The translations under genes and the position numbers were made by a program. Under the pieces are notes generated by a model. It did not search any database. It was not told where the DNA came from and saw nothing but the letters and a program-made list of their open reading frames with translations. 39,537 nt of DNA from a virus: the UHGV virus genome UHGV-0134280, one strand, 5' to 3'. Shown piece after piece: positions 1-21,629 of the stretch (positions are counted from its first letter, which is position 1; each line of letters opens with the position of its first letter).

Positions 1-554
1 TTAATGTAAGTACCGTCCACGGCGTGGGACATACTTCAAGGAACCTTTTGTGAGTCAGGCAACCAGTATGCGAAAACGACACCGATTTAACAGTCGCATG
101 ACCCGTATCGTACTGCTCATCAGCTTTATCTTCTTCTTTGGCCGTTTTATCTACTCGTCCGTCGGTGCATGGCAGCACCATCAGAGCAAAAAAGAAGCTC
201 AGCAATCCACACTCTCCGTCGAATCACCGGTACAACGTTAGCGGTTACCTTCTCCACTTTTACAGAACATAACGGCACCTCGCTGTCGGATGCTTTTGCT
301 CTTTGGGATTATCAAAGCGGCAGATATTCTTTCATCTTAAATTTTACGTCTTTGTCCTGACTGATGTTTATCCTGTTTGGCTGCGAAATAAATATAAAAT
401 TAATACATATGTTTTAATGATGTATTTTTATAAATTATTTTCCACATGAATTTTAATAAATTTAATCTATTCCTTTATACGCAATACATTTACTTTCCTC
501 TTTTGATGATCTTAAATGTCTTATTTTTCGTAATGTGTATAACAAGGAATAGTG

Positions 555-1070
555 ATGAAATTTAAAAAATGTCTTCTGCCTGTGGCAATGTTAGCGTCAT
601 TCACTCTGGCAGGATGCCAGTCAAATGCTGATGATCATGCCGCCGATGTTTATCAAACCGATCAACTGAATACCAAACAAGAAACTAAAACCGTTAATAT
701 TATTTCCATTCTTCCCGCAAAAGTTGCCGTAGACAACTCCCAAAATAAACGAAACGCACAAGCCTTCGGCGCGCTTATTGGTGCAGTCGCTGGCGGTGTT
801 ATTGGCCACAACGTCGGGTCTGGCAGCAATTCCGGAACGACGGCAGGTGCAGTTGGCGGCGGAGCTGTTGGCGCGGCAGCGGGTTCTATGGTGAATGATA
901 AAACCTTAGTGGAAGGTGTTTCTTTAACATATAAGGAAGGCACCAAAGTGTATACCTCCACCCAGGTGGGTAAAGAGTGCCAGTTTACGACAGGTTTAGC
1001 CGTTGTTATTACCACGACGTATAACGAAACGCGTATTCAGCCAAATACCAAATGTCCTGAAAAGAGCTAA
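555..1070 (+). CDS. Outer-membrane lipoprotein with glycine-zipper segment (YcfJ / 17-kDa surface antigen-like)
   Basis: Lipobox LAGC after signal peptide; Gly/Ala-rich stretch GALIGAVAGGVIGHNVGSG; AAGGAA RBS before ATG at 555 (track ORF starts at GTG 552). Confidence 0.6.
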   Translation: MKFKKCLLPVAMLASFTLAGCQSNADDHAADVYQTDQLNTKQETKTVNIISILPAKVAVDNSQNKRNAQAFGALIGAVAGGVIGHNVGSGSNSGTTAGAVGGGAVGAAAGSMVNDKTLVEGVSLTYKEGTKVYTSTQVGKECQFTTGLAVVITTTYNETRIQPNTKCPEKS

Positions 1071-1085
1071 TGATCAGGAGGAGTC

Positions 1086-1625
1086 ATGAAGAAAGTTTTT
1101 CTTTGCGCCATCTTAGCCTCCTTAAGCTATCCGGCTATCGCCTCATCATTGCAGGATCAACTCTCTGCTGTCGCAGAAGCGGAACAGCAAGGTAAAAATG
1201 AAGAGCAAAGGCAGCATGACGAATGGGTCGCGGAGCGCAACAGGGAAATCCAGCAAGAGAAGCAACGTCGCGCAAACGCCCAGGCCGCGGCTAATAAAAG
1301 AGCGGCAACGGCAGCAGCGAATAAGAAAGCTCGTCAGGATAAACTGGACGCCGAAGCCACTGCGGACAAAAAACGCGATCAAAGTTATGAAGATGAGCTA
1401 CGTAGCTTAGAGATTCAGAAACAAAAACTGGCGCTGGCGAAAGAAGAAGCCCGCGTCAAGCGCGAAAACGAATTTATCGATCAGGAACTGAAGCACAAAG
1501 CTGCGCAAACCGATGTGGTGCAATCTGAAGCTGACGCAAACAGAAATATGACTGAAGGCGGTCGCGATCTGATGAAAAGCGTGGGCAAAGCAGAAGAGAA
1601 CAAATCGGACAGCTGGTTTAATTAA
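1086..1625 (+). CDS. Secreted coiled-coil protein rich in K/E/A/Q, function unknown
   Basis: N-terminal signal peptide (MKKVFLCAILASLSYPAIASS); charged low-complexity body; GGAGG RBS; 15 bp after the preceding gene. Confidence 0.5.
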   Translation: MKKVFLCAILASLSYPAIASSLQDQLSAVAEAEQQGKNEEQRQHDEWVAERNREIQQEKQRRANAQAAANKRAATAAANKKARQDKLDAEATADKKRDQSYEDELRSLEIQKQKLALAKEEARVKRENEFIDQELKHKAAQTDVVQSEADANRNMTEGGRDLMKSVGKAEENKSDSWFN

Positions 1626-1662
1626 TCGATGTAAGTAACTTCAAGCCTATAATTCTTGAAGA

Positions 1663-1696
1663 TAAAAAACCCTCTGTAGTAACAGAGGGTTTTGTT
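1663..1696. terminator. Bidirectional rho-independent terminator
   Basis: A-run, 8-bp GC-rich stem ccctctgt/acagaggg, then T-run; sits between the convergent 1086..1625 (+) and Rz (-) genes. Confidence 0.6.
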
Positions 1697-1844
1697 CATT
1701 CATAGTGCAGGGATCAAAATCATTCCCACTCAATTATTCACGGACACCATAACCAATTGAGTGATAACATTTTTCCAAAGATGAATTTTTCCCATACCGT
1801 TTTATATACCGTCACCGGAAATCAGTACCATGAAAAATGCCATG

Positions 1845-2327
1845 CTATCTGGTCAGGGTGTCGTACTGTTTTTCGCAGACTCTTCCGGCTTCGGCTGCCC
1901 GGTCAGCATACTCTGCCAGTTGTCTGTTTCTCTCGAGAGATTTGCTGAGCACGTCGGCAAGCAAAACTCCGGTGTCTGCGGCTGACGACCCAGCGCCGAC
2001 AATGGCGTTATAGTGCCTGAGCTGCTCACGGATGGCAACGAGCTGTTGCTGCAACCGGCCAGCGCGAGCGGCAGCATCAAGAGCATCATTGCGCGCCTGG
2101 TCGATCCTCTGCTGCGATTCACGTTCATTGATCGCTTTCTCCTGTTCGTAGTGCTGACGAACTCTCTCATCTTCAGTTTTGCGGTCTTCTTTCGCCTGAG
2201 CATACCCGGCGTCGTACTGACGACTGCCGTGCACATTCCAGGCAACAACTCCTGATGTGGCAAGAACAGCAAGCATCGCCACGATAATCAACTGTTTCCA
2301 GTATGCTTTTACGAATGCCCAGATCAT
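1845..2327 (-). CDS. Rz-like i-spanin
   Basis: N-terminal TM helix then coiled-coil periplasmic domain; directly downstream of the endolysin with overlapping stop/start; contains an embedded lipoprotein ORF. Confidence 0.7.
1853..2089 (-). CDS. Rz1-like o-spanin lipoprotein embedded in the +1 frame of Rz
   Basis: Internal start [17 protein letters not shown] gives a lipobox; Pro/Ser/Thr-rich short product entirely inside Rz; start assigned by eye. Confidence 0.6.
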   Translation of the reverse strand: MMLLMLPLALAGCSNSSLPSVSSSGTITPLSALGRQPQTPEFCLPTCSANLSRETDNWQSMLTGQPKPEESAKNSTTP

Positions 2328-2953
2328 ACAGCCAGCACCTTACTGGCAATGATGTATCGGGCGCGGCGGTCATCAATGCCGTTCCGGCCACCATTGATAA
2401 TCAGAGTTACACGTGCAATATCGCCGGTATACTTCATGCAGCCTTTGCTGGAGAAGAACCAGGCCGCGCTACGGGCCGCGTATTCGTCCTGTGCCAGCAG
2501 TTCAGGATTCTCCAGCAGGTCAACTTTCAGACCGTTTCCGCAGTCACGATAGTTATTCAAGCCGGTAATCTGGATAAGTCCGCGCCCACGGTAGTTCCAG
2601 CCATCACCAGGGGCATTGTTCCCCATGCGTTTGCTGTACACCAGATTGGCGATAGCGCGCTGTCGCTCAAGTGGTAATGCTGCTTCACCAGCACGGCGAC
2701 CCAGTGCATTAGCCTGCCCCTGGGTGAGACGCCCAGTCCGAACGAAGTTAGCCAGTCCGGTGACACTGTAGTTGAAATTTTCCTGCAACCGGGTGAAGCC
2801 CCCAGACTCATGCCCGACCTGAGCAATAAACATTGCCTGATCTTCGGGTTTGCTGATTCCAAACTCTTTCATCGCAGAAGTTATATGCAAGAACCAGCGT
2901 TCGGCCAGCGCCTCGCTAATACCAGCAGCACGCTGGAATTGTTTAATCTCCAT
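2324..2953 (-). CDS. Endolysin, glycoside hydrolase family 19 (chitinase-like lysozyme)
   Basis: Motifs [12 protein letters not shown] and [13 protein letters not shown] typical of GH19; start trimmed to MEIKQF with RBS; track ORF extends upstream to 3118 into the holin. Confidence 0.8.
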
Positions 2954-3251
2954 GTTTAGACCTCGTTGTTTTGAAAATTTGAACGACGTTACCGCGAGTT
3001 TTAAGAACCGCAGCAAGCATGACAGCGTTAATAATGACCTCAGATAAATCCACAGCCATTGGCGTACGTAACCAGATTGCATAGGCGACTCGAACAGGAA
3101 TACTGGCCGCAGCAACAATCAGGAAATAAGCAAGCCATCCTCCCCACCTTCGGTGTTGAGAGCCGTTACGCCGGAATGTGACAACGCGAATTGCTATGCC
3201 AGTGCAAATAACTGCATTGGTGATAAGCAAAAAAAACTCATGCGTTACCAT
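2943..3251 (-). CDS. Putative holin
   Basis: 102 aa, hydrophobic helices, basic C-terminus, immediately upstream of and overlapping the endolysin start. Confidence 0.5.
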
Positions 3252-3642: not shown

Positions 3643-3923
3643 ACTTTCTCCTGTTTACTATCTATAAGCCAGTCAATTATTGATGACTAAACCCGCATAG
3701 TAAACCATATATGAATCATTATTGTTCCATATCATATATCTCAATAAAAGTACTAATGATTTTACAGAACGAGCCAGCAGAGTGGGGGCAGTTGTACAGG
3801 AACCATAGACTTAATTTTGTATTTAATAATGCTATGGTGTAATAAACCTGAACATGTATTTAAAATACGTACTGATTCATGATAGAATTCAAAGATAACT
3901 TTTCACCAACTCCGTTTTTGATA

Positions 3924-3950
3924 CCCGCAAAATATTGCGGGCTTTTTTTT
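3924..3950. terminator. Hairpin cccgcaa/ttgcggg with 8-T run at the 3' end of the tailspike gene
   Basis: Stem-loop 3924-3941; the T-run is on the plus strand and overlaps the tailspike stop codon, so the transcript it terminates is unclear. Confidence 0.4.
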
Positions 3951-6900
3951 AACGTTCTTCCAGAGACTGAATCCGCTCTTTTATCTTATCCATTTCTCTG
4001 CGCTGCCATGCTGCCTCGATATAGAATAAGAGATCAGGTCTGACCCCCCATCTAGATCCTGCTGGCGTTATTTCAACGCGCTCAATGATGTCTTCCATTA
4101 CCATCACTGGATTATCATCCTCATCAACAATGATGCTCCCGTCATTATCAGTCAGCGGAATTTCCCTTTGGCCAGTAATGACGTCATCATATACTGCGGG
4201 ATAATCGTCATAGCAAAGAAAGGCATAGCGGCATGTTGTGCTTTCTTCTTCCATGAGTCCGTGAGAAATAAGAACATCACGAAGTTGCTGCGCGATTACA
4301 CCATGATGTATCCTCGCCCCTTCTTCTCCCTTTATAGCGACAGCGTTCAGCCATTTATAAGCGATATACCTGACGTCACCCCAGGCATCCAGCAATGCTT
4401 CGTCAGGAGAGACCGGCTCTGTCTTTAATGTTCCGTCACTGGTAACCACAGGATTGGAGCCAAGATAAACTGTCGAGAACCTGTTTCCCGGACCACCAAG
4501 AGCATTTACATTATCAAGATAAGGTTTAACATCTCCGTTCTCAAAAAGATGTTCGAGTGCGTTATATACCGCGCGACGTGGAGTACTGCTTCCGGAACCA
4601 TGCAACGTTATCATTGCACCATCTGCTGAAGACGTTGTTTCACCGCCGCTAACGATTAATCTCTGAGCGGTAACATCATCAGACGGTACTTTCTTCGCAA
4701 TAATGGCGTAATTGCCCTCCAGTTTGACTTCCGCGCGAACTTGTCCTGATGTACCTGCATGGACAGTCAGTGACTGGACGGCAACATCATCTGTGAAATC
4801 AACGGGTACAGGAACCGTCCTCACGCCGGACGTCGACATAAAAGTAGGAAGCGTTCTGTTAGGAGTGGCTCCGTAGACAAAATCCCTTGAAACAAATTCT
4901 TCCTGTTTAATTTTCACCCTGAAACAATACAAATCAGCCGGGTGACCATCGTGAACATAAGGATATTTTCTGTTGTTATCCCCTATGCTCCATGGGTTTA
5001 GAAAGTCTTCCCCACCGAAAATGTAGTACAGCCAGTTGTCTTTGATACAAACTGAACCAACACCAACCGCAGAGTTAACTATTCCGCCCTGATAAATCTG
5101 ATCAGTAACATTAACCCACTCTACATTATCCAGACTCCACTCATTGACGTTAACTCTGGTCATAAATGTTCTTGGATAATTTCCTGCATAACGATTATCA
5201 GGTTCCCCTCCTTCCCACTCACCAAATGCGCGCTCACTGCCAAAAATAACCAGCTCATCGCCAACTTTGGCAAAAGGAAGGTTTGAGTGATGAACATTAT
5301 TTGGGAAGCGAAGAGAATTCCATGATGCACCTAAATCAGAGCTTCTGTGCAATGAACTACCAGGTTGAGTACTTAATGTCCCCCTGGTCGTCAGATACAG
5401 AATGCCATCATAATATTTTACACATGGCTCAGATGCATTCGCCTCATATTCTGCAGGTATGCGTCTGCGAACAAAGCTACCAGGAGAACCGAAAGCATCA
5501 GAGAAATAGAGTATCCCAAGCTCGCGTGGACCAATATCACCATTATGGTAGCCAACAGCAAAACTGTTATCGCTAATCGTCGCAAAACTGTGAATCTCAG
5601 TAACAGGAGTGCTTCCGTCAACAAAAGAAGGAATAGTTCCAAGACTGGTTTTTCTCCATGGTGACGAGTGAAATGATGTACCAAAACTCCAGTATCTACC
5701 CTCGTTATTCTGATCCACATCCTGAGTATTTTGCGTCGTAACTGTAAAAGTATTTTTATCAATAACAGTAGTCACCGTCATATTCCCGGTAACACCTGTA
5801 ACACCAGAGTTTGAGAAGTTGACAAAATCACCAGCAAATAATCCGTGATCAGTAATGCGAATATAAGCGACTTGCTGATTTGCTGCTTTCGTTATACCAC
5901 CATAAACGCGAAGGCTGCGACTCATTGGACGATCCCACAACTCTGCAACCTGCAGTTTATTTCCGCTCACGGTCCGCGTCTCAATTACAGCAAAAAGGCG
6001 ATTTCTGACAACCCCCATACTCATGCAGTGATAGTTAACTGTGGGATAGTTTTCATGTAAATCTGTAAGCCATTCCGGCGTTGTCCAGGTCTTCCCGTCA
6101 TCTCCTGAGCGAACCCATGCAACATGGAGGTTATTTACACCATGGCGGTCTCCAGCCATAAAAGGCGCATAGATGACATTGTCATATACAAACGTTTTAT
6201 CCTGCGTCCAGGCGTTGTACCACGGTGTATCTGTAATTTTAAATAACTCTCCCTGGATAAAATCTTCAGAAGCATAAAAAAGAGGCTGACCCGGTATTCT
6301 CTCAAATAAAAAACGAGCATTTTTAAATCGGCTGACATCCGGAAGAGTTGATACTTTAAAAGTAAGCCCTAATCCGTCAATTTTATAACCTGGAGATGAG
6401 GCTTCAAGGCACGCGCTTATTGCAGTGGAATCGTCATTTATACCATCACCAACAGCTCCAAAATCTTTGGGGCTAATAGCATCACGCATTTTATCCTGGA
6501 ACGTTCGGTATACTGCCCCAGAACCATACTGAATAAACCAACCAAAACCACCAACAACCCCGGCGATTGCAGCATCGACATAATTACGCATTGAGCGATT
6601 ATTTACAGCGTCCTGTTCAAGTGATGGATCTGCAAGGTTAGAAATTCTGTTTTGCTTTGCATCGTAATATTTTGCAAGCAAAGATGGTTTCATCAATGCA
6701 CGTCTGAACCATCCAAAACATTGCTGGATCAGCATCGTCAGGTAGTCAAAGGCATCTTCATGCACTTCGGGGAAAAACTTTCCCTGATTGCGAAGGTCTG
6801 TCTCCTGCACTACATCAAGCACACGATCTATCGTAATTCGCCAGCCAGCAGCAAGCGGCGACGGAAGAACAACAGAACCGCCACTATAAGTGCCCGCCCC

Positions 6901-7068
6901 AGTTACCGTATAACCGGTATCCAGAACCAATTCTGTTACGTTCCCGTTCAGGTCAGACACCTGAACAACCAGGTCGGATTTTTTGAAAATACGGAAGGTA
7001 TACGGAAATGATGTCGTAGCGCCGTTACCGGTGTATTCGTTGTGGTCAACTTCGGTTGAGACCGTCAT
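3949..7068 (-). CDS. Tailspike/tail fibre: T7 gp17-like N-terminal anchor, sialidase-type beta-propeller with Asp-boxes, C-terminal intramolecular chaperone (peptidase S74-like)
   Basis: N-terminal pattern resembles the T7 fibre anchor; Asp-boxes SGDDGKTW and SSDLGASW; C-terminal about 160 aa carries SDGTLK...YKW...GVIAQQL typical of auto-cleaving chaperone domains. Confidence 0.75.
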   Translation of the reverse strand: MTVSTEVDHNEYTGNGATTSFPYTFRIFKKSDLVVQVSDLNGNVTELVLDTGYTVTGAGTYSGGSVVLPSPLAAGWRITIDRVLDVVQETDLRNQGKFFPEVHEDAFDYLTMLIQQCFGWFRRALMKPSLLAKYYDAKQNRISNLADPSLEQDAVNNRSMRNYVDAAIAGVVGGFGWFIQYGSGAVYRTFQDKMRDAISPKDFGAVGDGINDDSTAISACLEASSPGYKIDGLGLTFKVSTLPDVSRFKNARFLFERIPGQPLFYASEDFIQGELFKITDTPWYNAWTQDKTFVYDNVIYAPFMAGDRHGVNNLHVAWVRSGDDGKTWTTPEWLTDLHENYPTVNYHCMSMGVVRNRLFAVIETRTVSGNKLQVAELWDRPMSRSLRVYGGITKAANQQVAYIRITDHGLFAGDFVNFSNSGVTGVTGNMTVTTVIDKNTFTVTTQNTQDVDQNNEGRYWSFGTSFHSSPWRKTSLGTIPSFVDGSTPVTEIHSFATISDNSFAVGYHNGDIGPRELGILYFSDAFGSPGSFVRRRIPAEYEANASEPCVKYYDGILYLTTRGTLSTQPGSSLHRSSDLGASWNSLRFPNNVHHSNLPFAKVGDELVIFGSERAFGEWEGGEPDNRYAGNYPRTFMTRVNVNEWSLDNVEWVNVTDQIYQGGIVNSAVGVGSVCIKDNWLYYIFGGEDFLNPWSIGDNNRKYPYVHDGHPADLYCFRVKIKQEEFVSRDFVYGATPNRTLPTFMSTSGVRTVPVPVDFTDDVAVQSLTVHAGTSGQVRAEVKLEGNYAIIAKKVPSDDVTAQRLIVSGGETTSSADGAMITLHGSGSSTPRRAVYNALEHLFENGDVKPYLDNVNALGGPGNRFSTVYLGSNPVVTSDGTLKTEPVSPDEALLDAWGDVRYIAYKWLNAVAIKGEEGARIHHGVIAQQLRDVLISHGLMEEESTTCRYAFLCYDDYPAVYDDVITGQREIPLTDNDGSIIVDEDDNPVMVMEDIIERVEITPAGSRWGVRPDLLFYIEAAWQRREMDKIKERIQSLEER

Positions 7069-7527: not shown

Positions 7528-7552
7528 AGGCCGCAAGAGCGGCCTATCGTTT
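7528..7552. terminator. Hairpin ggccgc-aaga-gcggcc between convergent genes
   Basis: 6-bp GC stem right after the stop at 7521, overlapping the stop of the minus gene; weak T-tract. Confidence 0.4.
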
Positions 7553-8272
7553 CGCTTTGTGCTCGTCCCAGCACGTTTTGCACCATGCCATTAAGCCGTC
7601 CGCATTTTGATTATTAGGGTAAAAGCTGGTTCGTTTTCTGCGGACATTACAAATTGGGCACCACTTCATATGACGTGTATTCTTTGGGCCATCGAGACAC
7701 CTTGCACACCACTTAGTCAATCCATCCGGATTTTTTGACGATTTCCTGAATTTTTCATATGGAAGGTTTATTCTGCATCGCAAGCACTGCTTGCTACCGC
7801 TTGAAACTCTGTTAGCTGATTCTTCTTTTGGCGGCGATACAGAAGATATTCTTGCTGGCTCTGATACTGCCTGAGGTGCTTTTTTAAATGACTGAGACGA
7901 TATGTCATCACCAGGGAATCTTCCATGATATGCCGGACGCGTTGACACTCCAGGTGGAAGCTCAGCTGTAAACGGCTTTGGCTGAATCAGTTGCCTCTCT
8001 TTTGCTAACTCCTGCTGTTTATAATATGTCTGGATTACCGCACTATCATAAGCATGAGGTACGGAAATATCAGGAGCGTTACCTCCAGTTTTTTGAAACT
8101 GAGTAGATGTGTGCTCTATCACCTGTGTACGATTAATCGTTATCTCCCCATCTTCGGTCTTTATCGTTTTGTTCTGATTAACGACCGTACGATCAGAGAT
8201 CTTAGTCTTGTTCTGGTTGATAACGTAAATAATCACCGCAACCACACCAACAACTATCCAGAAAACTTCCAT
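7544..8272 (-). CDS. N-terminally membrane-anchored protein with two C-terminal zinc-ribbon repeats, function unknown
   Basis: TM helix at residues 4-20; duplicated C-x2-C...DGL..WC..C modules in a basic C-terminal domain; GAGGAAAA RBS. Confidence 0.5.
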   Translation of the reverse strand: MEVFWIVVGVVAVIIYVINQNKTKISDRTVVNQNKTIKTEDGEITINRTQVIEHTSTQFQKTGGNAPDISVPHAYDSAVIQTYYKQQELAKERQLIQPKPFTAELPPGVSTRPAYHGRFPGDDISSQSFKKAPQAVSEPARISSVSPPKEESANRVSSGSKQCLRCRINLPYEKFRKSSKNPDGLTKWCARCLDGPKNTRHMKWCPICNVRRKRTSFYPNNQNADGLMAWCKTCWDEHKAKR

Positions 8273-10110: not shown

Positions 10111-10174
10111 TGTCTGCGGATTCCCGTCCGGGCGGCGGTGGCATTCGTTAAAAACAAGGCCGCGAAAGCGGCAT

Positions 10175-10186
10175 GTGACATGTCAC
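10175..10186. repeat. 12-bp perfect palindrome GTGACATGTCAC (copy 1)
   Basis: Read directly; 8 bp downstream of the small minus-strand ORF, at the end of the virion operon. Confidence 0.7.
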
Positions 10187-10193
10187 GCTCACG

Positions 10194-10334
10194 TTATGAC
10201 AAGCCTATGTACCCTGCTACACCAGATAATATCAAAATAACTGCAACAGCAAATTCGCCATCGTCAATGATACATTTACGGTTCATAACGCCAAGTGCAA
10301 CAAGCGCAAACACAACAAGAATAAAAGCAATCAT
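10194..10334 (-). CDS. 46-aa two-helix hydrophobic peptide, translationally coupled to the last internal virion gene
   Basis: ATG 9 nt after the upstream stop with AAGGATGAG RBS; translation MIAFILVVFALVALGVMNRKCIIDDGEFAVAVILILSGVAGYIGLS; not in the ORF track. Confidence 0.4.
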   Translation of the reverse strand: MIAFILVVFALVALGVMNRKCIIDDGEFAVAVILILSGVAGYIGLS

Positions 10335-10343
10335 TTCTCATCC

Positions 10344-12818
10344 TTATTGCGGAGTGACATCCTGTGGTCGCCACCAGTATGTCTGGTTAAACTCTTTCTT
10401 CGAACGTTGCTCCATTTTACGCAAATAACCTGGTGAAAAATACTCCTGCATCTGGTTAAAGATCATGTGATCGAGAGCCGCCTTCAAGTACCAGAGATTC
10501 GCACCTGGCATCAGACCTTTCCCCAGCTTAACCAGATCACCACCAGTCTGCTCACTCTTCCCTTCCACAGCATTTAACGGTATGCCCTGAGCAATCTTCA
10601 CTACGTCATCAACCAGACCAGCTACCGGGCCAAGCATCGACGCCAGCGCGCCGCTTCCGTACCTAGTGTGATCTGACAATAAAAAGTCACCGTAAAGGCC
10701 AAGACCACCACCTTTCAGTAGAGCACCAAGCCAAAATTTAGCAGCATCTTCTCCTGTCATCTCGCGAGGATTACGACCAGACGCAAGGTCGTTAAGTTGC
10801 TGCGACAAAGCGCCAAGAATGGTCGTACTGGCAATAAACGTCGCAATATATGCCGCACGCCCACCAGCAGACGGCATACCCATAGCGCGTGACCAGTGAC
10901 GCATAACCACCGAGATAGGGAACGATTTAAACAGGAAAACACTTCTCGTTAATTCACCTTTCCATGTTCCACGCTGAATACCAGAACCGGTTATCAGTTG
11001 CTCACGTGCTCCCGGTGTAATAACAGCCATATCAACTTCTTCAGTTATGGCACCGAGCAGTTTACGCATTGCCTCAAATTTCACGCGTTCAGGCTCACCA
11101 AGATGTTTAACTGCTGAATCAGGGATACGCATAATGCTTTCCGGTGTCAGCATCGTATTATTGCCGTTCCCCCAGTCCTCCTGTTGCGCCAGCTTCCATA
11201 CGCTCCAGTCTGTGTCAGTAATCCCTTTGCTTTTCAGGATGCGAAAATCAGAATCATCGAGGCTACGAAGGTCTGGTGTCCGTGACACTACTTCTCCCAA
11301 GCTTCCCATCATGGTTACGCCATAGGCGCGCTTGTGCGCATCTGACCATGCTGTAAGCCCACTGGCACGCATTACCGCCGTTGCAGCCCAACGAGACACA
11401 GACGGCCCCATATTATCCATCGCCCAGCGGTTAACGCTGCCAAGTAGAGATTCCATCGCCAGACCAGCGCGGCGCGCCCGCGCAAGTTCTGTACGGTTCG
11501 TTGGGTCCATAGCTTCAAGCTGGTTGCGGAATAACTGGTTCATTGGAAGGTTGGTCACCTTCGCAGACAGATACATGGTTCCAAGATCAGAGAACGATGA
11601 CAGCAACGCGGATCCGAGTCTGCTGGCAACCAGCCAGTTGCGGATATTGTCAGACCATCGCGCGATGTGCGGATTCGCTACAGGCTGTGTCTTTCCGGAA
11701 ATAAAGTTGTACAGATTCTCTGTGTTGTTCGCCAGCCGCTCGACTTTACCGGTTTTACTCGGGTTAGCTGTTGCCGTTTCTGCCTTCACCTGATCAAGAA
11801 GAGAGCGGAAAACATGATCGGGGTTTGGGCCATATGTTTCCACCAGTGCAATATCTTTACTGATACCTTCCAGGTGACCGACCATGATTTCCCATAGAGA
11901 GCGATCGCCATAAAGTTGCTGATATTGCAGATAGGAATCTGCATCTTTGAAATGTATCTGTCGTGATGTATTACCACGGTTAGCACGTGCGCCTGAAATT
12001 CGCATTCCGGTATCAGTAAGCTTATTCAGCCCACCAGTAGCGATCGTGTTATAAGCCTCTCCAAGAAATGCAGACAACTCGGAATCGTTCATCAGTTGTC
12101 CATCGGCTCGGATATAATATTTGCGATCCAGCTTACCTATAACATCGCTAACCCACTTATCCTTTGATACCGCCCCAACCTTTTCCATAGAATGATGTTG
12201 AGGGATTCCCCAGTTTTCGAGATAGCCAATGTCCCCACCAGCATCATTAAACCGGCGGCGCAGTAGATCTGTCACTTCTCTCCACGCCTTAGCACCTTTT
12301 CTTGCTTTAGCATTGCCAGTATTTTGCCCTCGCATTTCATATACCAGGTCACGCACGCCAGCTTCATCTTCAAACAGGCCAAAAAAGCGAGGATCAACTG
12401 CTTCAAATGCCTCTTGCAATTGACTCAATGCATAATCACGAGTGGCTTTTGTTCTGGACTCAACAGAGAGGAAATTCGATTTACCGTCTGCATTAAAAGC
12501 AATAGTACGGTTAAGAGCGCCAAGTTTCCCATCAGCCCCTTGATAGCTATTGATAAATTTATCCAATCTCTGACGTGCGGATATAGTGAGGGCCACACGA
12601 CGTTTCTTTAATGCCGCTTCTCGCTGTAATTCTTCAGATGCCAATTGTGCTGCACGATATAGCCGCTCTGATTCGGAAAGTTGTCTCCACGACATCGGGT
12701 CATCACGAGCAATGGAGCGCATATTTCGATAAATGCGGTCTTCAATGTTCTGTATTTCTCGCGCCGTTAACGTGCGCTGCGCCGCCTGCTGGACCGCTTG
12801 TATACATTCCTGTCTCAT
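10344..12818 (-). CDS. Internal virion/ejection protein (T7 gp16-like, C-terminal part)
   Basis: 824 aa; called by size and position in the gp13-gp16-like block upstream of the tailspike. Confidence 0.5.
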   Translation of the reverse strand: MRQECIQAVQQAAQRTLTAREIQNIEDRIYRNMRSIARDDPMSWRQLSESERLYRAAQLASEELQREAALKKRRVALTISARQRLDKFINSYQGADGKLGALNRTIAFNADGKSNFLSVESRTKATRDYALSQLQEAFEAVDPRFFGLFEDEAGVRDLVYEMRGQNTGNAKARKGAKAWREVTDLLRRRFNDAGGDIGYLENWGIPQHHSMEKVGAVSKDKWVSDVIGKLDRKYYIRADGQLMNDSELSAFLGEAYNTIATGGLNKLTDTGMRISGARANRGNTSRQIHFKDADSYLQYQQLYGDRSLWEIMVGHLEGISKDIALVETYGPNPDHVFRSLLDQVKAETATANPSKTGKVERLANNTENLYNFISGKTQPVANPHIARWSDNIRNWLVASRLGSALLSSFSDLGTMYLSAKVTNLPMNQLFRNQLEAMDPTNRTELARARRAGLAMESLLGSVNRWAMDNMGPSVSRWAATAVMRASGLTAWSDAHKRAYGVTMMGSLGEVVSRTPDLRSLDDSDFRILKSKGITDTDWSVWKLAQQEDWGNGNNTMLTPESIMRIPDSAVKHLGEPERVKFEAMRKLLGAITEEVDMAVITPGAREQLITGSGIQRGTWKGELTRSVFLFKSFPISVVMRHWSRAMGMPSAGGRAAYIATFIASTTILGALSQQLNDLASGRNPREMTGEDAAKFWLGALLKGGGLGLYGDFLLSDHTRYGSGALASMLGPVAGLVDDVVKIAQGIPLNAVEGKSEQTGGDLVKLGKGLMPGANLWYLKAALDHMIFNQMQEYFSPGYLRKMEQRSKKEFNQTYWWRPQDVTPQ

Positions 12819-12823
12819 TTAAT

Positions 12824-14626
12824 TTAACCTCTCAAGAAACACGCCACAGCGACATCAAACAGGCTGGAATCCTGTATTGCCTGCTCACTTTCCCTGTTCG
12901 CTTCATCCAGTACTTCACGCGCGCTGCGCGATTGTGGATTACCATCATCATCCAGCACGGTGATTATCATGTCAGGTGATTCAAGCAGCGAGTCTTCAGC
13001 TATGCGCAGATCAATATCTCCTGCCTGATCCGCCATCATTTTTTGTTCTGCCTGTTGCAATATTTTATCAGGCTCAAAAGGAGCTACTTCGTCTGGCGTC
13101 CTGACCTCTGCTGTTTTATAGAATGAAACAGCCTGAGCATTAAGTTCACTTTCTACCTGCAGTCGCCGTGCCAGTTCTGCTCGAGCTTCAAAAAACTGAC
13201 CGCCAGGCTCATGCGGTGCCAACGCGTTACGAGAAAATTCCAGGCGTTCTTGTGCCTGCCTGATTCGTTGGTCAATATCGCGAAGTCTGGCCTGTTTATC
13301 TGATCGAGCACGAGATAAAGCCTTACCGCTACCGGTTGGATCTTCTGCAAGAATTTGTGCGCGCTGTTCAGTGAGATTTTCAATAATTCGTTGGCTATTA
13401 GCGATTTCAGACTGGTAAACCTGTCTATCGCCACGCGGCAAAAGCTGTGCGGCCTGTTCTTCAAGCAACCGATTTTCTATAGCGCGCGCCGTTACTCCAT
13501 CATCTACAGATGACAGAGCCTCATTAACTGCCTGAGACAGCAGACTCTTGCGCCCAGGAATTTCACTGAAAGATGCAGACTCAACAATGCTGGCAACGTC
13601 TACAGGTCTCCCCTGGCTAACATCAGACATGGCTTTTCGCAGAGCCTGAATGTGTGAATTACGCGAAAGCACGTTGATCGGCACGCCGGGAGCAATATCA
13701 ATTTCAGCATGATGAGCGGCATTCGCCGCCAGTGCAGCATCGATATCAACTGGTGAAAAATTTGGTGCGCTTGTAGACTCGCCGCGAGAGTTAATAAATC
13801 TGCCGACACCACCAAACGCCACCCCAAGAACAGCATCAATAGCAATTGCCTGTCGATCCAACACATCATACTGGTTAGCCATTTCGCTATAGCCACCATC
13901 ACGAAGCGTTTTAGCAGTAAGCCCACGCTGTGCCATACCGAACGCAATATTTGTACCTGCGGCATAGGCAATATCTGGCGTTGCACGTACTGCTGTTGCT
14001 GCGGCGCGTCGCACTGAACTTTCACCCGTCCGCGCAAGCTGAGCCGCCACACCTTCCGCCAGCGCACCACCCGCACGTAACCCGAGGCTCATAGGGATCA
14101 GTGTTCCGGCACCAGCAGTAATACCCTGCACTAATCCAGCTTCCTGCGCCGTCCTGAAATCAACACCCTGTGCTGTCAGCCGTTCAAACTCAGAAAAACC
14201 CTGTAGAGAAGTTACCGCCGCAGCACCTCCGACCGGACCACCGAGCGTTGTACCGACAACAGCCTGCCCGCCCATATCGAACAACCCATAAAGAACCTGC
14301 CCGGCGGTTCCGGTTGTCGCGGCATCAGGCGTCAGCCGCTTAACCTGCTGCTCTGCTAGTTTTCTCTGCTCGGCAATGTATGAAACTGAAGTATCATTGA
14401 GCGAGGTGTTTTCGTTAACAAACTGAGCAATCGGGGATACGATTTTATCCATCCCTGCCCATAGCAACTGATCTGGCTTTGCCACCAGCCCGGAGTACAA
14501 ACCAGACAATGCCGCTCCTACAGCATTGTCGAAAAAACCAACATCGCTGTTAAAACCAGCTGGATTTGATGCTGCTTCGTCAAGCTGCTGATTCTGGTTT
14601 ACTGGATTAAGGCCAAAGTAACTCAT
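12824..14626 (-). CDS. Internal virion protein (gp16-like, N-terminal part), Gly/Ala-rich
   Basis: 600 aa; Gly/Ala-rich hydrophobic segments and coiled coil; synteny only. Confidence 0.45.
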   Translation of the reverse strand: MSYFGLNPVNQNQQLDEAASNPAGFNSDVGFFDNAVGAALSGLYSGLVAKPDQLLWAGMDKIVSPIAQFVNENTSLNDTSVSYIAEQRKLAEQQVKRLTPDAATTGTAGQVLYGLFDMGGQAVVGTTLGGPVGGAAAVTSLQGFSEFERLTAQGVDFRTAQEAGLVQGITAGAGTLIPMSLGLRAGGALAEGVAAQLARTGESSVRRAAATAVRATPDIAYAAGTNIAFGMAQRGLTAKTLRDGGYSEMANQYDVLDRQAIAIDAVLGVAFGGVGRFINSRGESTSAPNFSPVDIDAALAANAAHHAEIDIAPGVPINVLSRNSHIQALRKAMSDVSQGRPVDVASIVESASFSEIPGRKSLLSQAVNEALSSVDDGVTARAIENRLLEEQAAQLLPRGDRQVYQSEIANSQRIIENLTEQRAQILAEDPTGSGKALSRARSDKQARLRDIDQRIRQAQERLEFSRNALAPHEPGGQFFEARAELARRLQVESELNAQAVSFYKTAEVRTPDEVAPFEPDKILQQAEQKMMADQAGDIDLRIAEDSLLESPDMIITVLDDDGNPQSRSAREVLDEANRESEQAIQDSSLFDVAVACFLRG

Positions 14627-17136
14627 TGCGGAATATCTCCGGAGAATCTCTGACGCTTCTGTGTCAGATCAAGAACAACGGGAGAACCATCATCTTTCAG
14701 CAGATAACCAGTACCAAGTTTCACCAGGTACTGACTATCGCCGTAACTTTGCAAACCATACTGACCAGGCGGTGTTTTTATCCCAGAGCCGACAACTTGT
14801 TCATTCCAAGCCTGATTAACCTGCTTATCGAATTGCTCTGCAGACATTCCCCACGGCAAAAGGACATTCCCCATTCCGTTATAGTCATGCACGCCACCTG
14901 TAGCTACGTTAACAGCCTGTTTCCAGACATCATTGTCAATTTCGCCTGATACCACGCCTTTTTTCGCCATCACACCAGCGTAATAATCCTTTGCGATCTC
15001 GTATGCCATTGATGCCCCCTGAGCGTCACCAGCAAATGCATCCTTCACCATGTCAGAAAACTCAAGGCGAAGATCAGCATCTTTAGGCATCGGAATACCT
15101 TTCGCATCATCAGTACCTTTACGAGCCGCCGCGCCAGCAAGAATTGTCTGCGCAGCGGTTTCAGGAGACACGGAAACATCCGGATTAAACCAGTTTTTTT
15201 CTGCCAAAATACCACCAGGCTTATCCATCAGTATCCCGGCAACGGCAGCAGATGGAGCGTTGGCACTGATCTGCTGTAGTGCTGACATATACACCTGCCC
15301 ACCACCAGTGCTCTGCCTGATGGTATCGAGATATGCTGCCTGTTGGGAAACTGGAGCATCACGAAAGAAAACACCGATCTGATTGGCCTCGTCTTTGGAA
15401 AAGAACGTCAGTGGAGTGCCATATGACTTAGCAAGGTCACTGACCTGAGCGGCACGCAAGGCAACGCTCTGTCCAAAGTTATCCTTATTGCTCATGTCGA
15501 TAGGCTTTGCCTGTCCGGAGGCAAGAGAGAACTGCACAGGATCCGACTGCCGCTGCTTTATCACCTGATTTGCAGCCGAAACAACGTTGTCATAAAGATC
15601 TGCGCGTGCCGCATACCCCTCCCCTGTCTCACCAGTATCCGGGCGTAATTGCTCAACATATGCTGTAATGCTGCTTGTCGGCATATTGCGGAAAGAGCCT
15701 ATATACTGTCCGGCGATCTGCGTATTTCTGAACTCGGTATATCGCAGGTTTCCTTCTCTGACGCCATAAGCTGCAATAAAATCAGCCTCACCAGGTGGGT
15801 TAGGAAATTCAACGCCACGCATATACGCAGCCGTCGCATCGCGAACCCGACTGTCAATCATCGTTTTATATTCAGCCTGCTGCTGCCGACGAAGTTGATC
15901 CGCCTGTCGCATAAAACTTGCCTGCGCCTCAGGAGATGCCGCATCGAATGCTGCATTACCGGTATAGCGTTTAGTGTTGGTTGGAATTGTTGATAAACCA
16001 AGTGCTGCACTGACACCAGCAGTTAACTGCTGATCACTGTATGGCTGGCTACCGTTCTCATGATGGATAATGGCTGCACAAAGCGCCTTCAGGGTATCAG
16101 GATTAGATGCATCGAGAGGCTCATCAGCAGAAACGCCAAGTTGTTCGCACACTGCTTTGATATACGACATAGTGTCATTTTTATCAGTAGGCGGTGCCCA
16201 GCGATTAATTATCTCGCTGACGGTATCAATACCCTGCCTCTGATACGACATCAGGTTTCGCCCTAATGCACGAATCCCGTGTTCAGGTGTTTCGAATTTA
16301 GCAAATCGACCATCATCACCGGTCTGGCCTACCCACGGATTAGTTTTGCTGTATTCGAGATTTCCTGGGTTATTGTTGCGTATGCCACGGGCACTATCGG
16401 AAGAGTCACTATCGGCTACAGCACGGCGAGCTCCAGCAGCAGTATCACTTAACTCGCCATTACTTTGGATGAATGCGGTCGCATTGTTTGCCGACCACTG
16501 GGACAATGCGGCATCAGCAACCTTCTCTTTAAACTCGATTTTCTTGGCCTGGATTTGCTCGTCGCTCCAGCCATGCGCAATGCCGTAATCCTCAATTTGC
16601 TGGAAAGTTTGCTTATTAGCCAGTACGTATGCGGCGTTGTCGCCATACAATGCTGCGGCATTTTTACCATTGTTCAGCAACGTCGCCTGAAACTGGCCTT
16701 CTTCGTAGGCTTTTATTTGCCCTATCTCGTGCCGCCCGGCCTGCGTAGTGAACTGAATACGCTGCTGCTGCGCCTGCTGCATGAAAGCATTACGAGCCTG
16801 TTCATCCGGCAGCGACATAGCCAGTTGTTCGATCTGAGCATCAAACTGCTGCGTATACTCCTGACCTTTTCCAATAGCATTTTTCCCTTTCAGGTTAAGC
16901 AAACCTGTTTCAGGGTTATTCAACAGATCGCTGCTTATCTGGCTTAAGCTAAGAGAAGCATCCTGAGCCATAGCAACATTCGCACGCTGTTTTGCCTGCG
17001 CAACAATACCTGCATATTGCTCTGCAACATCGCCAAGTACATCACCGACATTTGGTGTCTGAAACGATGAGAATCCCTGAGTCGAAATCCCTCTGCTCTG
17101 AACCTGACGGCCCGATGTTGTTGGTACAACTGGCAT
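14623..17136 (-). CDS. Internal virion protein (gp15-like)
   Basis: 837 aa; size and order; contains a conserved-looking RNNNPGNL segment of uncertain meaning. Confidence 0.45.
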   Translation of the reverse strand: MPVVPTTSGRQVQSRGISTQGFSSFQTPNVGDVLGDVAEQYAGIVAQAKQRANVAMAQDASLSLSQISSDLLNNPETGLLNLKGKNAIGKGQEYTQQFDAQIEQLAMSLPDEQARNAFMQQAQQQRIQFTTQAGRHEIGQIKAYEEGQFQATLLNNGKNAAALYGDNAAYVLANKQTFQQIEDYGIAHGWSDEQIQAKKIEFKEKVADAALSQWSANNATAFIQSNGELSDTAAGARRAVADSDSSDSARGIRNNNPGNLEYSKTNPWVGQTGDDGRFAKFETPEHGIRALGRNLMSYQRQGIDTVSEIINRWAPPTDKNDTMSYIKAVCEQLGVSADEPLDASNPDTLKALCAAIIHHENGSQPYSDQQLTAGVSAALGLSTIPTNTKRYTGNAAFDAASPEAQASFMRQADQLRRQQQAEYKTMIDSRVRDATAAYMRGVEFPNPPGEADFIAAYGVREGNLRYTEFRNTQIAGQYIGSFRNMPTSSITAYVEQLRPDTGETGEGYAARADLYDNVVSAANQVIKQRQSDPVQFSLASGQAKPIDMSNKDNFGQSVALRAAQVSDLAKSYGTPLTFFSKDEANQIGVFFRDAPVSQQAAYLDTIRQSTGGGQVYMSALQQISANAPSAAVAGILMDKPGGILAEKNWFNPDVSVSPETAAQTILAGAAARKGTDDAKGIPMPKDADLRLEFSDMVKDAFAGDAQGASMAYEIAKDYYAGVMAKKGVVSGEIDNDVWKQAVNVATGGVHDYNGMGNVLLPWGMSAEQFDKQVNQAWNEQVVGSGIKTPPGQYGLQSYGDSQYLVKLGTGYLLKDDGSPVVLDLTQKRQRFSGDIPQ

Positions 17137-17148
17137 CTTATTATCCCC

Positions 17149-17688
17149 TTATCGACCGGTTGGAGTGCCAACAGCAGCAGAAATCGGCGCAGCCTTCTGA
17201 GAGAACGGGCTCCACGTTCCGCCGCCCATCTGGTATGCACCGTATGCTTTTAGTGGTGCCGTTAACAAAGTGCTGGTCATCGATGATTTAGCAGCCGACT
17301 GAGCAGCAGCCCCCTGTGCCTGAGCATTCATTCCCTGAACCTGATACCCATATGCCTCACGCTGAGCATTATTCACTGTCGTTAACGCATCAAGAGTGCC
17401 GAACTGAGCATTATCCGCAAAAACGTCAAGAGCTGTTCCGCTACTTAATTCCGCACCGGTAGCCCCCATAGTGGCCGCCGCAGTACCTGAGCGTTGACGC
17501 ATTTCACGACGACGCTGATCCGCTTCAATATTCCCACGATTGATTGAATCCTGTGCCTGAGCTTCAGCAATTTCAGCATTCCGATCAGCTATGGCTGACT
17601 GGTATTTTGCCTGCTTGCTCTGGCTGTACATTGACGCGGCTGTGGATGCCACTGTGACGGCAACCAAAGCGATGGCTGGGTTACACAT
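17149..17688 (-). CDS. Internal virion protein (gp14-like)
   Basis: 179 aa, Ala/Gln-rich with hydrophobic N-terminus; synteny. Confidence 0.4.
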   Translation of the reverse strand: MCNPAIALVAVTVASTAASMYSQSKQAKYQSAIADRNAEIAEAQAQDSINRGNIEADQRRREMRQRSGTAAATMGATGAELSSGTALDVFADNAQFGTLDALTTVNNAQREAYGYQVQGMNAQAQGAAAQSAAKSSMTSTLLTAPLKAYGAYQMGGGTWSPFSQKAAPISAAVGTPTGR

Positions 17689-21228: not shown

Positions 21229-21284
21229 AAGTTTCTATACTCCTGCAATAAAGGGGCCGAAGCCCCTTGTCTGATTCGCGAGGC

Positions 21285-21629
21285 TTACACGCCCAGTTCT
21301 TTACGCTTATCTGCGATCTTCTCGCGGAGCGTTTCGGCTTTGGCGTTATGGTGTGGCTTCTCGTTAAAGAGCAATTCGTACTCTTCACGGAGCTTATCCA
21401 GTTCACCATCATCTGACACATCGTTGATGATTTTGGTGCTGGTTGCTGCCATAGACACCTTTCCTGTTACCTTTGCTTTTGCCTGTCTGGCTGCATCGTT
21501 AACAGGTTCCAGTGCGCTACCAGGCTCACCTTCGTATTCGATTTCTGCCCCCTCCGGCCACAGAGTGTTATGGATATGAGAGAGGCGCAGAACGCGGTAT
21601 CTTGGTTTCTCACCTGACATCGATATCAC
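21285..21629 (-). CDS. Hypothetical head-associated protein
   Basis: 114 aa in the capsid block; no recognisable motifs. Confidence 0.35.
   Translation of the reverse strand: MISMSGEKPRYRVLRLSHIHNTLWPEGAEIEYEGEPGSALEPVNDAARQAKAKVTGKVSMAATSTKIINDVSDDGELDKLREEYELLFNEKPHHNAKAETLREKIADKRKELGV

What the first reader, a model, noticed from the sequence alone, without database searches (positions are those of the whole stretch)
3949..7068. Tailspike combines a T7-fibre-type anchor, a sialidase-fold propeller with two Asp-boxes and a C-terminal auto-cleaving chaperone domain
Canonical Asp-box motifs (SGDDGKTW, SSDLGASW) mark a sialidase-like beta-propeller, and the last roughly 160 residues match the intramolecular chaperone pattern of endosialidase-type spikes (predicted cleavage near residue 877 at VVT/SDGTLK). 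This predicts a capsule or polysaccharide depolymerase and therefore the surface glycan of the host; whether the substrate is polysialic acid or another sugar cannot be read from sequence.
Basis: partly seen in the sequence, partly recalled or inferred. Interest (0 to 1): 0.6.

Follow-up and report, generated by a model that had tools for sequence, protein, structure and literature searches.

The report
Prophage endosialidase tailspike for K1 capsule
This gene encodes a well-known kind of phage tailspike, an endosialidase that cuts the polysialic-acid (K1) capsule of E. coli; a nearly identical gene has already been published and annotated, so it is an ordinary, correctly read feature.

Summary
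The ORF is real: window 3949-7068, minus strand, 1039 aa.

- **Endosialidase core.** Residues 205-876 match all four Pfam endosialidase domains. They match the crystal structure of phage K1F endosialidase (EndoNF) at E=0. All five residues the K1F mutational scan lists as key catalytic residues are conserved.
- **C-terminal chaperone.** Residues 877-1039 are a Peptidase_S74 chaperone domain. Its Ser877/Lys882 dyad aligns with EndoNF Ser911/Lys916, so the predicted cut at T876|S877 is correct.
- **Anchor.** Residues 1-204 are the tail anchor of epsilon15/phiV10-like phages (genus Uetakevirus). The anchor resembles T7 gp17 in fold only and fails the Pfam threshold.
- **Substrate.** It can be named. 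Gene nt 699-3091 (aa 234-1030) is 99% identical in DNA to the CUS-3 endosialidase, whose GenBank record cites a direct activity assay. The whole gene is 98.9% identical to that of phage vB_EcoP_ZX5, which infects a K1 strain.
- **Prior description.** The ZX5 paper already describes this domain architecture. Seventy-two complete E. coli genomes carry the full gene.
- **Context.** The window is a prophage integrated at the guaA-side att site.

Verdict: correct, already known, low interest.

The parts
3949..7068 (-). Complete tailspike gene, 1039 aa, 115.5 kDa precursor (stop codon 3949-3951)
   Evidence: ORF list. 98.9% DNA identity over all 3120 nt to the phage vB_EcoP_ZX5 tail gene. Up to 99.5% identity to genes annotated 'endosialidase catalytic beta-propeller domain-containing protein' in 72 complete E. 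coli genomes. Masses.
6457..7068 (-). N-terminal virion anchor, aa 1-204. Beta-sandwich at aa 9-82 followed by helices. Uetakevirus (epsilon15/phiV10) type, T7 gp17-like in fold only.
   Evidence: 68% identity to the phiV10 tail fibre over aa 1-166. PDB Dpo31 of podovirus Carin-1, E 7e-33. AF2 model has pLDDT above 90 for roughly aa 10-80. Foldseek hits to 8CK1, 7EY9, 7BOZ and 9JZ0. Pfam PF03906 is below its cut-off.
6370..6480 (-). Junction segment, aa 197-233 (gene nt 589-699). It includes the FGAVGDGINDDS motif that opens the endosialidase N-terminal extension and is not closely matched by either parent lineage.
   Evidence: Uetakevirus anchor DNA homology (Phi05_1387 B, 96.4%) stops at nt 588 and CUS-3 homology (99%) starts at nt 699. 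A blastn search spanning the junction (gene nt 549-729) found full-length matches only in ZX5 and the two Phi05 contigs. Fifteen of the 32 protein differences from CUS-3 downstream of aa 205 lie in aa 206-233.
6256..6456 (-). Endosialidase N-terminal extension, aa 205-271
   Evidence: Pfam PF12218, E 5.9e-32, 1-67/67. Aligned to EndoNF crystal chains from aa 205.
4906..6255 (-). Catalytic six-bladed beta-propeller, aa 272-721. Active-site residues H309, R515, E547, R562, R613.
   Evidence: Pfam PF12217, E 5.2e-233, 1-367/367. 99.6% identical to CUS-3 and 70% to K1F EndoNF. EndoNF H350, R549, E581, R596 and R647 are all conserved. Residue roles from PMC12632334.
6085..6108 (-). Asp-box 1, SGDDGKTW, aa 321-328
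   Evidence: Aligned with SGDDGQTW of EndoNF.
5674..5922 (-). Beta-barrel domain inserted in the propeller, aa 383-465. A polysialic-acid binding site in EndoNF.
   Evidence: Pfam PF12195, E 3.2e-46, 1-83/83. 100% identical to CUS-3. Binding-site role from PMC12632334.
5320..5343 (-). Asp-box 2, SSDLGASW, aa 576-583
   Evidence: Aligned with SRDIGQTW of EndoNF and SSDLGTSW of CUS-3.
4441..4905 (-). Stalk, aa 722-876, which is the C-terminus of the mature spike. It includes R863, the equivalent of EndoNF R897.
   Evidence: Pfam PF12219, E 8.4e-78. EndoNF crystal chains end at the residue aligned with T876. R863; role of R897 from PMC8326128.
3952..4440 (-). C-terminal intramolecular chaperone / autoprotease domain, aa 877-1039 (18.7 kDa). 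Ser877-Lys882 dyad. Predicted cut between T876 and S877 (window 4441|4440).
   Evidence: Pfam PF13884, 41.4 bits against a cut-off of 22, aa 877-937. PDB 3GW6, E 7e-94. S911→S877, K916→K882, G956→G923, N912→D878. Dyad role from PMC8326128 and PMC3742443.
3924..3941 (+). GC-rich hairpin just beyond the tailspike stop codon. It reads as an intrinsic terminator on the + strand (followed by T8). On the tailspike strand it is preceded by A8 and has no U-tract.
   Evidence: It lies in the 306-nt non-coding gap where phiV10 carries oac.

Best explanation
The gene encodes the receptor-destroying tailspike of an epsilon15/phiV10-like (Uetakevirus) prophage integrated at the guaA-side att site of an E. 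coli chromosome.

Inferred by homology, the protein trimerises and works as follows. Its N-terminal beta-sandwich anchor (aa 1-204) fixes it to the short tail. Residues 205-876 form an endo-N-acetylneuraminidase (endosialidase) that binds and cleaves the alpha-2,8-polysialic acid of the K1 capsule, so that the virion can tunnel to the outer membrane. The C-terminal 163 residues act as an intramolecular chaperone for folding of the trimeric stalk, and then cut themselves off between Thr876 and Ser877 using a Ser877-Lys882 dyad helped by Arg863. This would leave a 96.8 kDa mature subunit.

What is shown here: domain content, conservation of every checked catalytic residue, near-identity to the CUS-3 enzyme and to the tail gene of a phage that infects a K1 strain, and a mosaic build of a Uetakevirus anchor joined to a CUS-3-type enzyme cassette.

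What is inferred: activity, processing, trimer state and use in infection by this particular prophage.
For: - **Domains and structures.** Pfam finds four endosialidase domains plus Peptidase_S74, each covering essentially its whole profile and all above cut-off. PDB matches are EndoNF 1V0E/3GVL at E=0 over aa 205-876, phi92 endosialidase 4HIZ at E 1.5e-271, and the chaperone-domain structure 3GW6 at E 7e-94.
- **Conserved residues.** H309, R515, E547, R562, R613, S877, K882, G923 and R863 are all conserved. Their roles are given in PMC12632334, PMC8326128 and PMC3742443.
- **CUS-3.** Gene nt 699-3091 is 99.0% identical to CUS-3 siaK1. That GenBank record carries 'endo-alpha-sialidase activity, Evidence IDA, PMID 16689790'.
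- **ZX5.** The whole gene is 98.9% identical to that of temperate phage vB_EcoP_ZX5. ZX5 forms plaques on an O87:H52:K1 strain and integrates at the 3' end of guaA.
- **Integration site.** The same att core lies at window 1718-1734, next to yfgI and yfgH.
- **Hosts.** Genomes carrying the gene include O2:K1:H5 APEC, APEC O1 and a cerebrospinal-fluid isolate.
- **Anchor.** 68% identity to phiV10, and fold matches to virion-attached fibre N-termini.
Against: - Nothing was tested experimentally for this allele.
- EndoNF Asn912, reported as essential for chaperone-domain function, is Asp878 here. CUS-3 has the same Asp, and human MYRF has Asp at this position.
- The second Asp-box has Ala where CUS-3 has Thr (A581).
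- Whether the prophage in this window is inducible is unknown. The integrase end lies outside the window.
- The host's capsule type cannot be read from the window.
Confidence: 0.93

Rival explanations
1. It is a sialidase-fold depolymerase for some other capsule or O-antigen sugar, not polysialic acid. This is the possibility the first reader left open.
For: Asp-boxes and propellers occur in many glycosidases. Pfam BNR_2 gives only a weak hit (E 0.0022, below cut-off). The same anchor is fused to unrelated enzymes in other E. coli prophages, namely GH28-related and SGNH/GDSL proteins.
Against: The match is to the endosialidase-specific families over their whole length. The propeller is 99.6% and the beta-barrel 100% identical to the assayed CUS-3 enzyme. 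All EndoNF sialic-acid catalytic residues are kept. The near-identical phage ZX5 was isolated on a K1 strain.
Confidence: 0.02
2. It is a binding-only or decaying copy: a prophage relic whose spike no longer cleaves or no longer matures.
For: Prophage genes often decay. Most lysogens appear to hold a second, CUS-3-type endosialidase copy, which could relax selection. N912→D878 and T→A in Asp-box 2 differ from the best-studied enzymes.
Against: The ORF is intact and has the same length as in the plaque-forming phage ZX5. Every catalytic and processing residue checked is conserved, and D878 is shared with CUS-3. The gene is 98.9-99.5% conserved across dozens of genomes without truncation.
Confidence: 0.04
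3. The N-terminal module is a true member of the T7 gp17 tail-fibre family and docks as T7 fibres do, at the adaptor-nozzle (gp11/gp12) interface.
For: Foldseek with the aa 1-204 model returns T7 gp17 N-terminal chains: 7EY9_a E 1.9e-4, 7BOZ_a E 2.8e-4, and 9JZ0_b with rmsd 2.4 Å over 82 columns. The ZX5 paper labels the domain 'T7 like'.
Against: Pfam PF03906 scores 14.2 bits against a cut-off of 25.2 and covers only aa 135-161. BLASTP against the K1F gp17 N-terminus gives E 0.41. A profile of 27 anchor homologues did not list T7 gp17 among PDB hits up to E=10. Identity in the structural matches is 15-19%. The model is confident only for the beta-sandwich, with mean pLDDT 67.
Confidence: 0.35

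Closest known systems
Tail protein ORF7 (QTH80017.1) of temperate Escherichia phage vB_EcoP_ZX5 (Uetakevirus, MW722083; Pathogens 2022, PMC9782041)
   Same: Same length (3120 nt) at 98.9% DNA identity, and the same position upstream of the holin/endolysin genes. The same att core is present. The paper describes the same three domains and a K1 host.
   Different: About 1% sequence divergence. The rest of the two phage genomes is only partly alike: in the search with window 1-25000, the best ZX5 match was window 10113-25000 at 98.2%. No enzymatic assay of the ZX5 protein was found in the passages read.
CUS-3 endosialidase tailspike SiaK1 (ABQ88383.1; P22-like Lederbergvirus prophage of E. coli K1 RS218)
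   Same: aa 234-1030 are nearly identical (99% DNA; propeller 99.6%, barrel 100%, stalk 98.7% protein identity), including D at the N912 position. Its GenBank record cites direct-assay evidence for activity.
   Different: The N-terminus is a P22-type head-binding domain instead of the Uetakevirus anchor. The last ~14 residues differ. CUS-3 has the neuO poly-psi repeat downstream, whereas here a 306-nt non-coding gap follows.
EndoNF, gp17 of lytic phage K1F (PDB 1V0E, 3GVL, 3GW6)
   Same: Same domain order from the N-terminal extension to the chaperone domain. Identity is 70% in the propeller, 56% in the stalk and 54% in the C-terminal domain. All catalytic and processing residues except N912 are conserved, and both have two Asp-boxes.
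   Different: K1F uses a genuine T7-type N-terminus with no detectable sequence similarity to this anchor. This protein has a 7-residue insertion (FVDGSTP, aa 482-488) and a longer loop in the C-terminal domain.
Tail fibre/tailspike of phiV10 and epsilon15 (Uetakevirus) and Dpo31 of marine podovirus Carin-1 (PDB 8CK1)
   Same: The N-terminal anchor is shared: 68% identity to phiV10 over aa 1-166 and E 7e-33 to Dpo31. Dpo31 domain D1 is a beta-sandwich of residues 8-87 that sits at the virion base, and Dpo31 also sheds an 18 kDa C-terminal domain.
   Different: Their enzyme modules are unrelated to endosialidase. phiV10 also carries an O-antigen acetylase gene (oac) next to the spike gene, which is absent here.

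Membership tests
Endosialidase (endo-N-acetylneuraminidase, EC 3.2.1.129; CAZy family GH58 from my own knowledge) | Endosialidase-type six-bladed beta-propeller catalytic domain (Pfam PF12217) above the curated cut-off | tested here: met
   772.9 bits against a cut-off of 24, profile 1-367/367, aa 272-721. PDB 1V0E/3GVL at E=0.
Endosialidase (endo-N-acetylneuraminidase, EC 3.2.1.129; CAZy family GH58 from my own knowledge) | Accessory domains in canonical order: N-terminal extension, beta-barrel inserted in the propeller, and stalk (tail-spike) domain | tested here: met
   PF12218 at aa 205-271, PF12195 at aa 383-465 and PF12219 at aa 722-876, all full-length and above cut-off.
Endosialidase (endo-N-acetylneuraminidase, EC 3.2.1.129; CAZy family GH58 from my own knowledge) | Active-site residues equivalent to EndoNF E581, R596 and R647 (plus H350 and R549) | tested here: met
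   E547, R562, R613, H309 and R515. Residue list from PMC12632334.
Endosialidase (endo-N-acetylneuraminidase, EC 3.2.1.129; CAZy family GH58 from my own knowledge) | Two Asp-boxes in the propeller | tested here: met
   aa 321-328 and 576-583, aligned with those of EndoNF.
Endosialidase (endo-N-acetylneuraminidase, EC 3.2.1.129; CAZy family GH58 from my own knowledge) | [quoted passage not shown] | not testable with these tools
   Only indirect support. The catalytic part is 99% identical to CUS-3 SiaK1, annotated with direct-assay evidence, and the host of the near-identical phage ZX5 is K1.
Peptidase S74 / C-terminal intramolecular chaperone (ICA) domain | Pfam PF13884 above cut-off at the C-terminus of a fibre or spike protein | tested here: met
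   41.4 bits against a cut-off of 22, aa 877-937. 3GW6 at E 7e-94 over aa 757-1038.
Peptidase S74 / C-terminal intramolecular chaperone (ICA) domain | Ser-Lys catalytic dyad (EndoNF S911/K916) with the scissile bond before the Ser | tested here: met
   S877 and K882. EndoNF mature crystal chains end at the residue aligned with T876. Dyad role from PMC8326128.
Peptidase S74 / C-terminal intramolecular chaperone (ICA) domain | Stalk arginine needed for autocleavage (EndoNF R897) and conserved G956 | tested here: met
   R863 and G923. Roles.
Peptidase S74 / C-terminal intramolecular chaperone (ICA) domain | Asn at the EndoNF N912 position, reported as essential in K1F | tested here: not met
   Asp878 here. 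CUS-3 has the same Asp (D819), and MYRF has Asp at this position, where D579A reduces processing. I read this as a natural variant rather than a loss.
Peptidase S74 / C-terminal intramolecular chaperone (ICA) domain | Actual self-cleavage and chaperone dependence of folding | not testable with these tools
   Predicted products are 96.8 and 18.7 kDa.
Phage T7 tail-fibre N-terminal domain (Pfam PF03906) | Sequence match above the Pfam gathering score | tested here: not met
   14.2 bits against 25.2, E 0.035, only aa 135-161. BLASTP against the K1F gp17 N-terminus gives E 0.41. The anchor profile did not retrieve T7 gp17 from the PDB at E up to 10.
Phage T7 tail-fibre N-terminal domain (Pfam PF03906) | Same fold as the gp17 N-terminus in solved T7 tails | tested here: met
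   Foldseek hits to 7EY9_a/b/c, 7BOZ_a/b/c, 7EY7_a and 9JZ0_b with E from 1.9e-4 to 6.2e-3 and probability 1.00. Rmsd is 2.4-3.0 Å over 82-86 columns for the beta-sandwich. The model is confident only for roughly aa 10-80.
Uetakevirus (epsilon15/phiV10) tailspike anchor | Close sequence similarity of the first ~165 residues to the phiV10/epsilon15 tail fibre, in a phiV10-like gene order | tested here: met
   68% identity over aa 1-166. nt 1-588 is 96.4% identical to the Uetakevirus contig Phi05_1387 B. Window 1718-25000 is 96-97% identical to phiV10 and phiv142-3 over about 70% of the query.

The most novel reading that the evidence does not exclude
The endosialidase cassette may have moved very recently between two unrelated temperate podoviruses that share K1 hosts: P22-like CUS-3 and this guaA-integrated epsilon15-like prophage.

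The 5' crossover would lie in the conserved GDGxxDD entry of the endosialidase N-terminal extension and the 3' crossover about 30 nt before the stop codon. A 37-residue junction piece appears to come from a third, unsampled lineage.

Most lysogens of the epsilon15-like type seem to carry both copies, so ongoing gene conversion between co-resident prophages could keep the two spikes 99% identical.
Probability: 0.45. Interest if true: 0.25.

Novelty: already known. Interest (0 to 1): 0.12.

Why it matters
It tells us that the host of this prophage lineage carries the K1 polysialic-acid capsule, the main virulence factor of neonatal-meningitis, avian-pathogenic and many urinary E. coli. It adds one more allele of an enzyme used as a polysialic-acid reagent and as an anti-capsule agent.

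It is also a clean example of tailspike cassette exchange. The same enzyme module sits on T7-like, P22-like and epsilon15-like anchors. None of this is new: the architecture is published for phage vB_EcoP_ZX5, and RefSeq annotates the gene as endosialidase-domain-containing.

Tried and rejected
- **T7 membership by sequence.** Pfam PF03906 was below cut-off, BLASTP against the K1F gp17 N-terminus gave nothing, and an anchor-profile hmmsearch of the PDB did not list T7 gp17. I therefore rejected 'member of the T7 fibre family' and kept 'same fold'.
- **NCBIfam.** It gave only a spurious TolR hit far below cut-off.
- **Capsule or O-antigen acetylase next to the spike.** CUS-3 has neuO and phiV10 has oac in this position. 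Here there is only a 306-nt non-coding gap with a hairpin.
- **Origin of the junction segment.** A blastn search spanning it (gene nt 549-729) found full-length matches only in the same endosialidase Uetakevirus records.
- **First structure job.** I re-ran it without that row.
- **Modelling aa 205-1039.** I did not do this. With 54-70% identity to crystal structures, a model would add nothing.
- **Stalk binding-site residues.** The EndoNF processivity paper (PMC2666599) is not held, so these residues were not mapped.
Full report
**Observation.** The coordinates 3949-7068 hold one ORF of 1039 aa on the minus strand, with ATG at 7068 and its stop codon at 3949-3951. They are the only matches to S-x-D-x-G-x-[TS]-W in the protein, and none of 20,000 shuffles of the protein gave two such motifs.

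**The enzyme core.** Pfam gives full-length matches far above cut-off to the four domains that are specific to phage endosialidases:
- End_N_terminal, aa 205-271
- End_beta_propel, aa 272-721, E 5e-233
- End_beta_barrel, aa 383-465, inserted in the propeller
- End_tail_spike, aa 722-876

Peptidase_S74 follows at aa 877-937.

Against solved structures, aa 205-876 align end to end with the K1F endosialidase EndoNF (1V0E, 3GVL; E=0) and with the phi92 endosialidase (4HIZ). Residues 757-1038 align with the EndoNF stalk-plus-chaperone structure 3GW6 at E 7e-94.

I aligned the protein with full-length K1F gp17 and the CUS-3 endosialidase. The residues that a deep mutational scan of K1F lists as key catalytic positions are H350, R549, E581, R596 and R647 (PMC12632334). 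All are conserved here, as H309, R515, E547, R562 and R613. At 70% identity to a crystal structure I did not think a model was needed.

**C-terminal domain.** The mature EndoNF crystal chains end at the residue aligned with Thr876. EndoNF Ser911 and Lys916 form the catalytic dyad of self-cleavage (PMC8326128; PMC3742443), and they align with Ser877 and Lys882. Arg897, the stalk arginine needed for cleavage, is Arg863 here. Gly956 is Gly923.

The one deviation is Asn912, which is Asp878 here. CUS-3 has the same Asp, and human MYRF carries Asp at this position in a working domain. I read it as a natural variant. The predicted products are 96.8 kDa (aa 1-876) and 18.7 kDa (aa 877-1039) from a 115.5 kDa precursor.

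**Substrate.** With comparison it can.
- Gene nt 699-3091 is 99.0% identical to siaK1 of prophage CUS-3. At protein level the propeller is 99.6% identical, the barrel 100% and the stalk 98.7%.
- The CUS-3 GenBank record annotates endo-alpha-sialidase activity with direct-assay evidence, PMID 16689790.
- The whole gene is 98.9% identical to ORF7 of temperate phage vB_EcoP_ZX5, which was isolated on an O87:H52:K1 strain.
- Genomes carrying the gene include O2:K1:H5 APEC, APEC O1 and a cerebrospinal-fluid isolate.

The substrate is alpha-2,8-polysialic acid, the K1 capsule. This is an inference from near-identity, not an assay of this allele.

**The anchor.** Residues 1-166 are 68% identical to the phiV10 tail fibre, and nt 1-588 is 96.4% identical to another Uetakevirus contig. 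The closest solved relative is Dpo31 of the marine podovirus Carin-1 (E 7e-33). Its domain D1 is a beta-sandwich of residues 8-87 that sits at the base of the virion (PMC13317679).

The label 'T7-fibre type' fails as family membership:
- Pfam Phage_T7_tail scores 14.2 bits against a cut-off of 25.2.
- BLASTP against the true T7-like N-terminus of K1F gp17 gives E 0.41.
- A 27-sequence anchor profile did not pull T7 gp17 out of the PDB.

It holds as fold resemblance. An AlphaFold model of aa 1-204 had mean pLDDT 67, but above 90 for the beta-sandwich at roughly aa 10-80. By Foldseek its 14 hits with E ≤ 0.001 were all chains from podovirus tail or fibre complexes. They include T7 gp17 N-terminal chains 7EY9 and 7BOZ, and 9JZ0 at rmsd 2.4 Å over 82 columns. 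It works like a T7-type anchor and is at best a distant relative.

**Mosaic build and context.** Uetakevirus homology ends near nt 588 and CUS-3 homology begins at nt 699. The piece between (aa 197-233) carries the FGAVGDGINDDS motif. A search spanning it found full-length matches only in the same endosialidase Uetakevirus records. The last ~14 residues again differ from CUS-3.

Among 5,426 complete E. coli genomes:
- 72 carry the full gene.
- 181 carry the catalytic module at 80% coverage or more.
- 281 carry the anchor at 80% coverage or more. The listed examples include GH28-related genes, and SGNH/GDSL hydrolase genes share only the first ~110 nt.

There are 263 places in 194 genomes for the catalytic module. 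Rows for the Uetakevirus-type gene mostly show two places per genome. This suggests that these lysogens usually also hold a CUS-3-type copy. That is an inference I did not verify genome by genome.

The window itself is chromosome plus prophage. The host genes yfgH and yfgI lie at 552-1625. The att core ATTGAGTGGGAATGATT reported for ZX5 lies at 1718-1734, and phage homology starts at 1718. The same layout is seen in strain VR50. The spike gene sits upstream of two holin-like genes, a GH19 endolysin and a DUF2514 gene.

**Comparison and novelty.** This is the modular pattern already described for endosialidases: the same enzyme on a T7-like anchor in K1F and on a P22-like anchor in CUS-3 (review PMC5380687). 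The epsilon15-like version is also published. The ZX5 paper states that ORF7 has an N-terminal T7-like tail-fibre domain, a central endosialidase and a C-terminal endosialidase chaperone. RefSeq annotates the gene as endosialidase-domain-containing.

The finding is correct and already known. The only mildly open points are the recent exchange between co-resident prophages and the third-party junction segment. Interest is low.

Noticed in passing
window 552-1734: The window is not a free phage genome. The host genes yfgH (552-1070) and yfgI (1086-1625) are followed by the att core ATTGAGTGGGAATGATT at 1718-1734, the same core reported for ZX5 integration at the 3' end of guaA. The prophage runs from there to the end of the window, and its integrase end is not included.
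   Followed up: yes
window 3643-3948: There is a 306-nt AT-rich non-coding gap between the tailspike and the first holin-like gene, where phiV10 carries the O-antigen acetylase gene oac. It holds a strong + strand terminator-like hairpin (3924-3941, then T8) that faces the tailspike stop codon. This may be a relic of a lost convergent gene or a bidirectional terminator.
   Followed up: partly
window 7544-8272 (-): A 242-aa ORF just upstream of the tailspike has an N-terminal hydrophobic segment and C-terminal CxxC pairs. It matches PHROG 6762 (unknown function) over its full length, with weaker matches of the Cys-rich part to endonuclease VII and Lar-like zinc ribbons. It is annotated as hypothetical in VR50.
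   Followed up: partly
window 26440-26516 (+): A tRNA-Arg (anticodon TCT) gene lies inside the prophage. A tRNA-Arg is annotated at the corresponding place in the VR50 prophage.
   Followed up: no
window 3949-7068; E. coli genome hits: Most genomes with this Uetakevirus-type endosialidase gene show a second match to the catalytic module, probably a CUS-3-type prophage. If so, two unrelated prophages in one cell carry 99%-identical 2.4-kb enzyme cassettes.
   Followed up: partly
protein P0010: A 277-aa Kluyvera cryocrescens protein, named 'N terminal extension of bacteriophage endosialidase' by its source, is 80% identical to the anchor region. This hints at endosialidase-type spikes, or fragments of them, outside E. 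coli.
   Followed up: no
window 10344-17136 (-): Three large virion proteins (824, 600 and 837 aa) have no Pfam family. PHROGs links the 837-aa one to endolysin and tail-injection transglycosylase families. They are probably ejection or internal core proteins, as in epsilon15 and phiV10.
   Followed up: partly
window 36206-39487 (+): The early region encodes a YqaJ-type exonuclease and RecT recombination pair (36206-38137) and an MT-A70 adenine methyltransferase (38837-39487).
   Followed up: no
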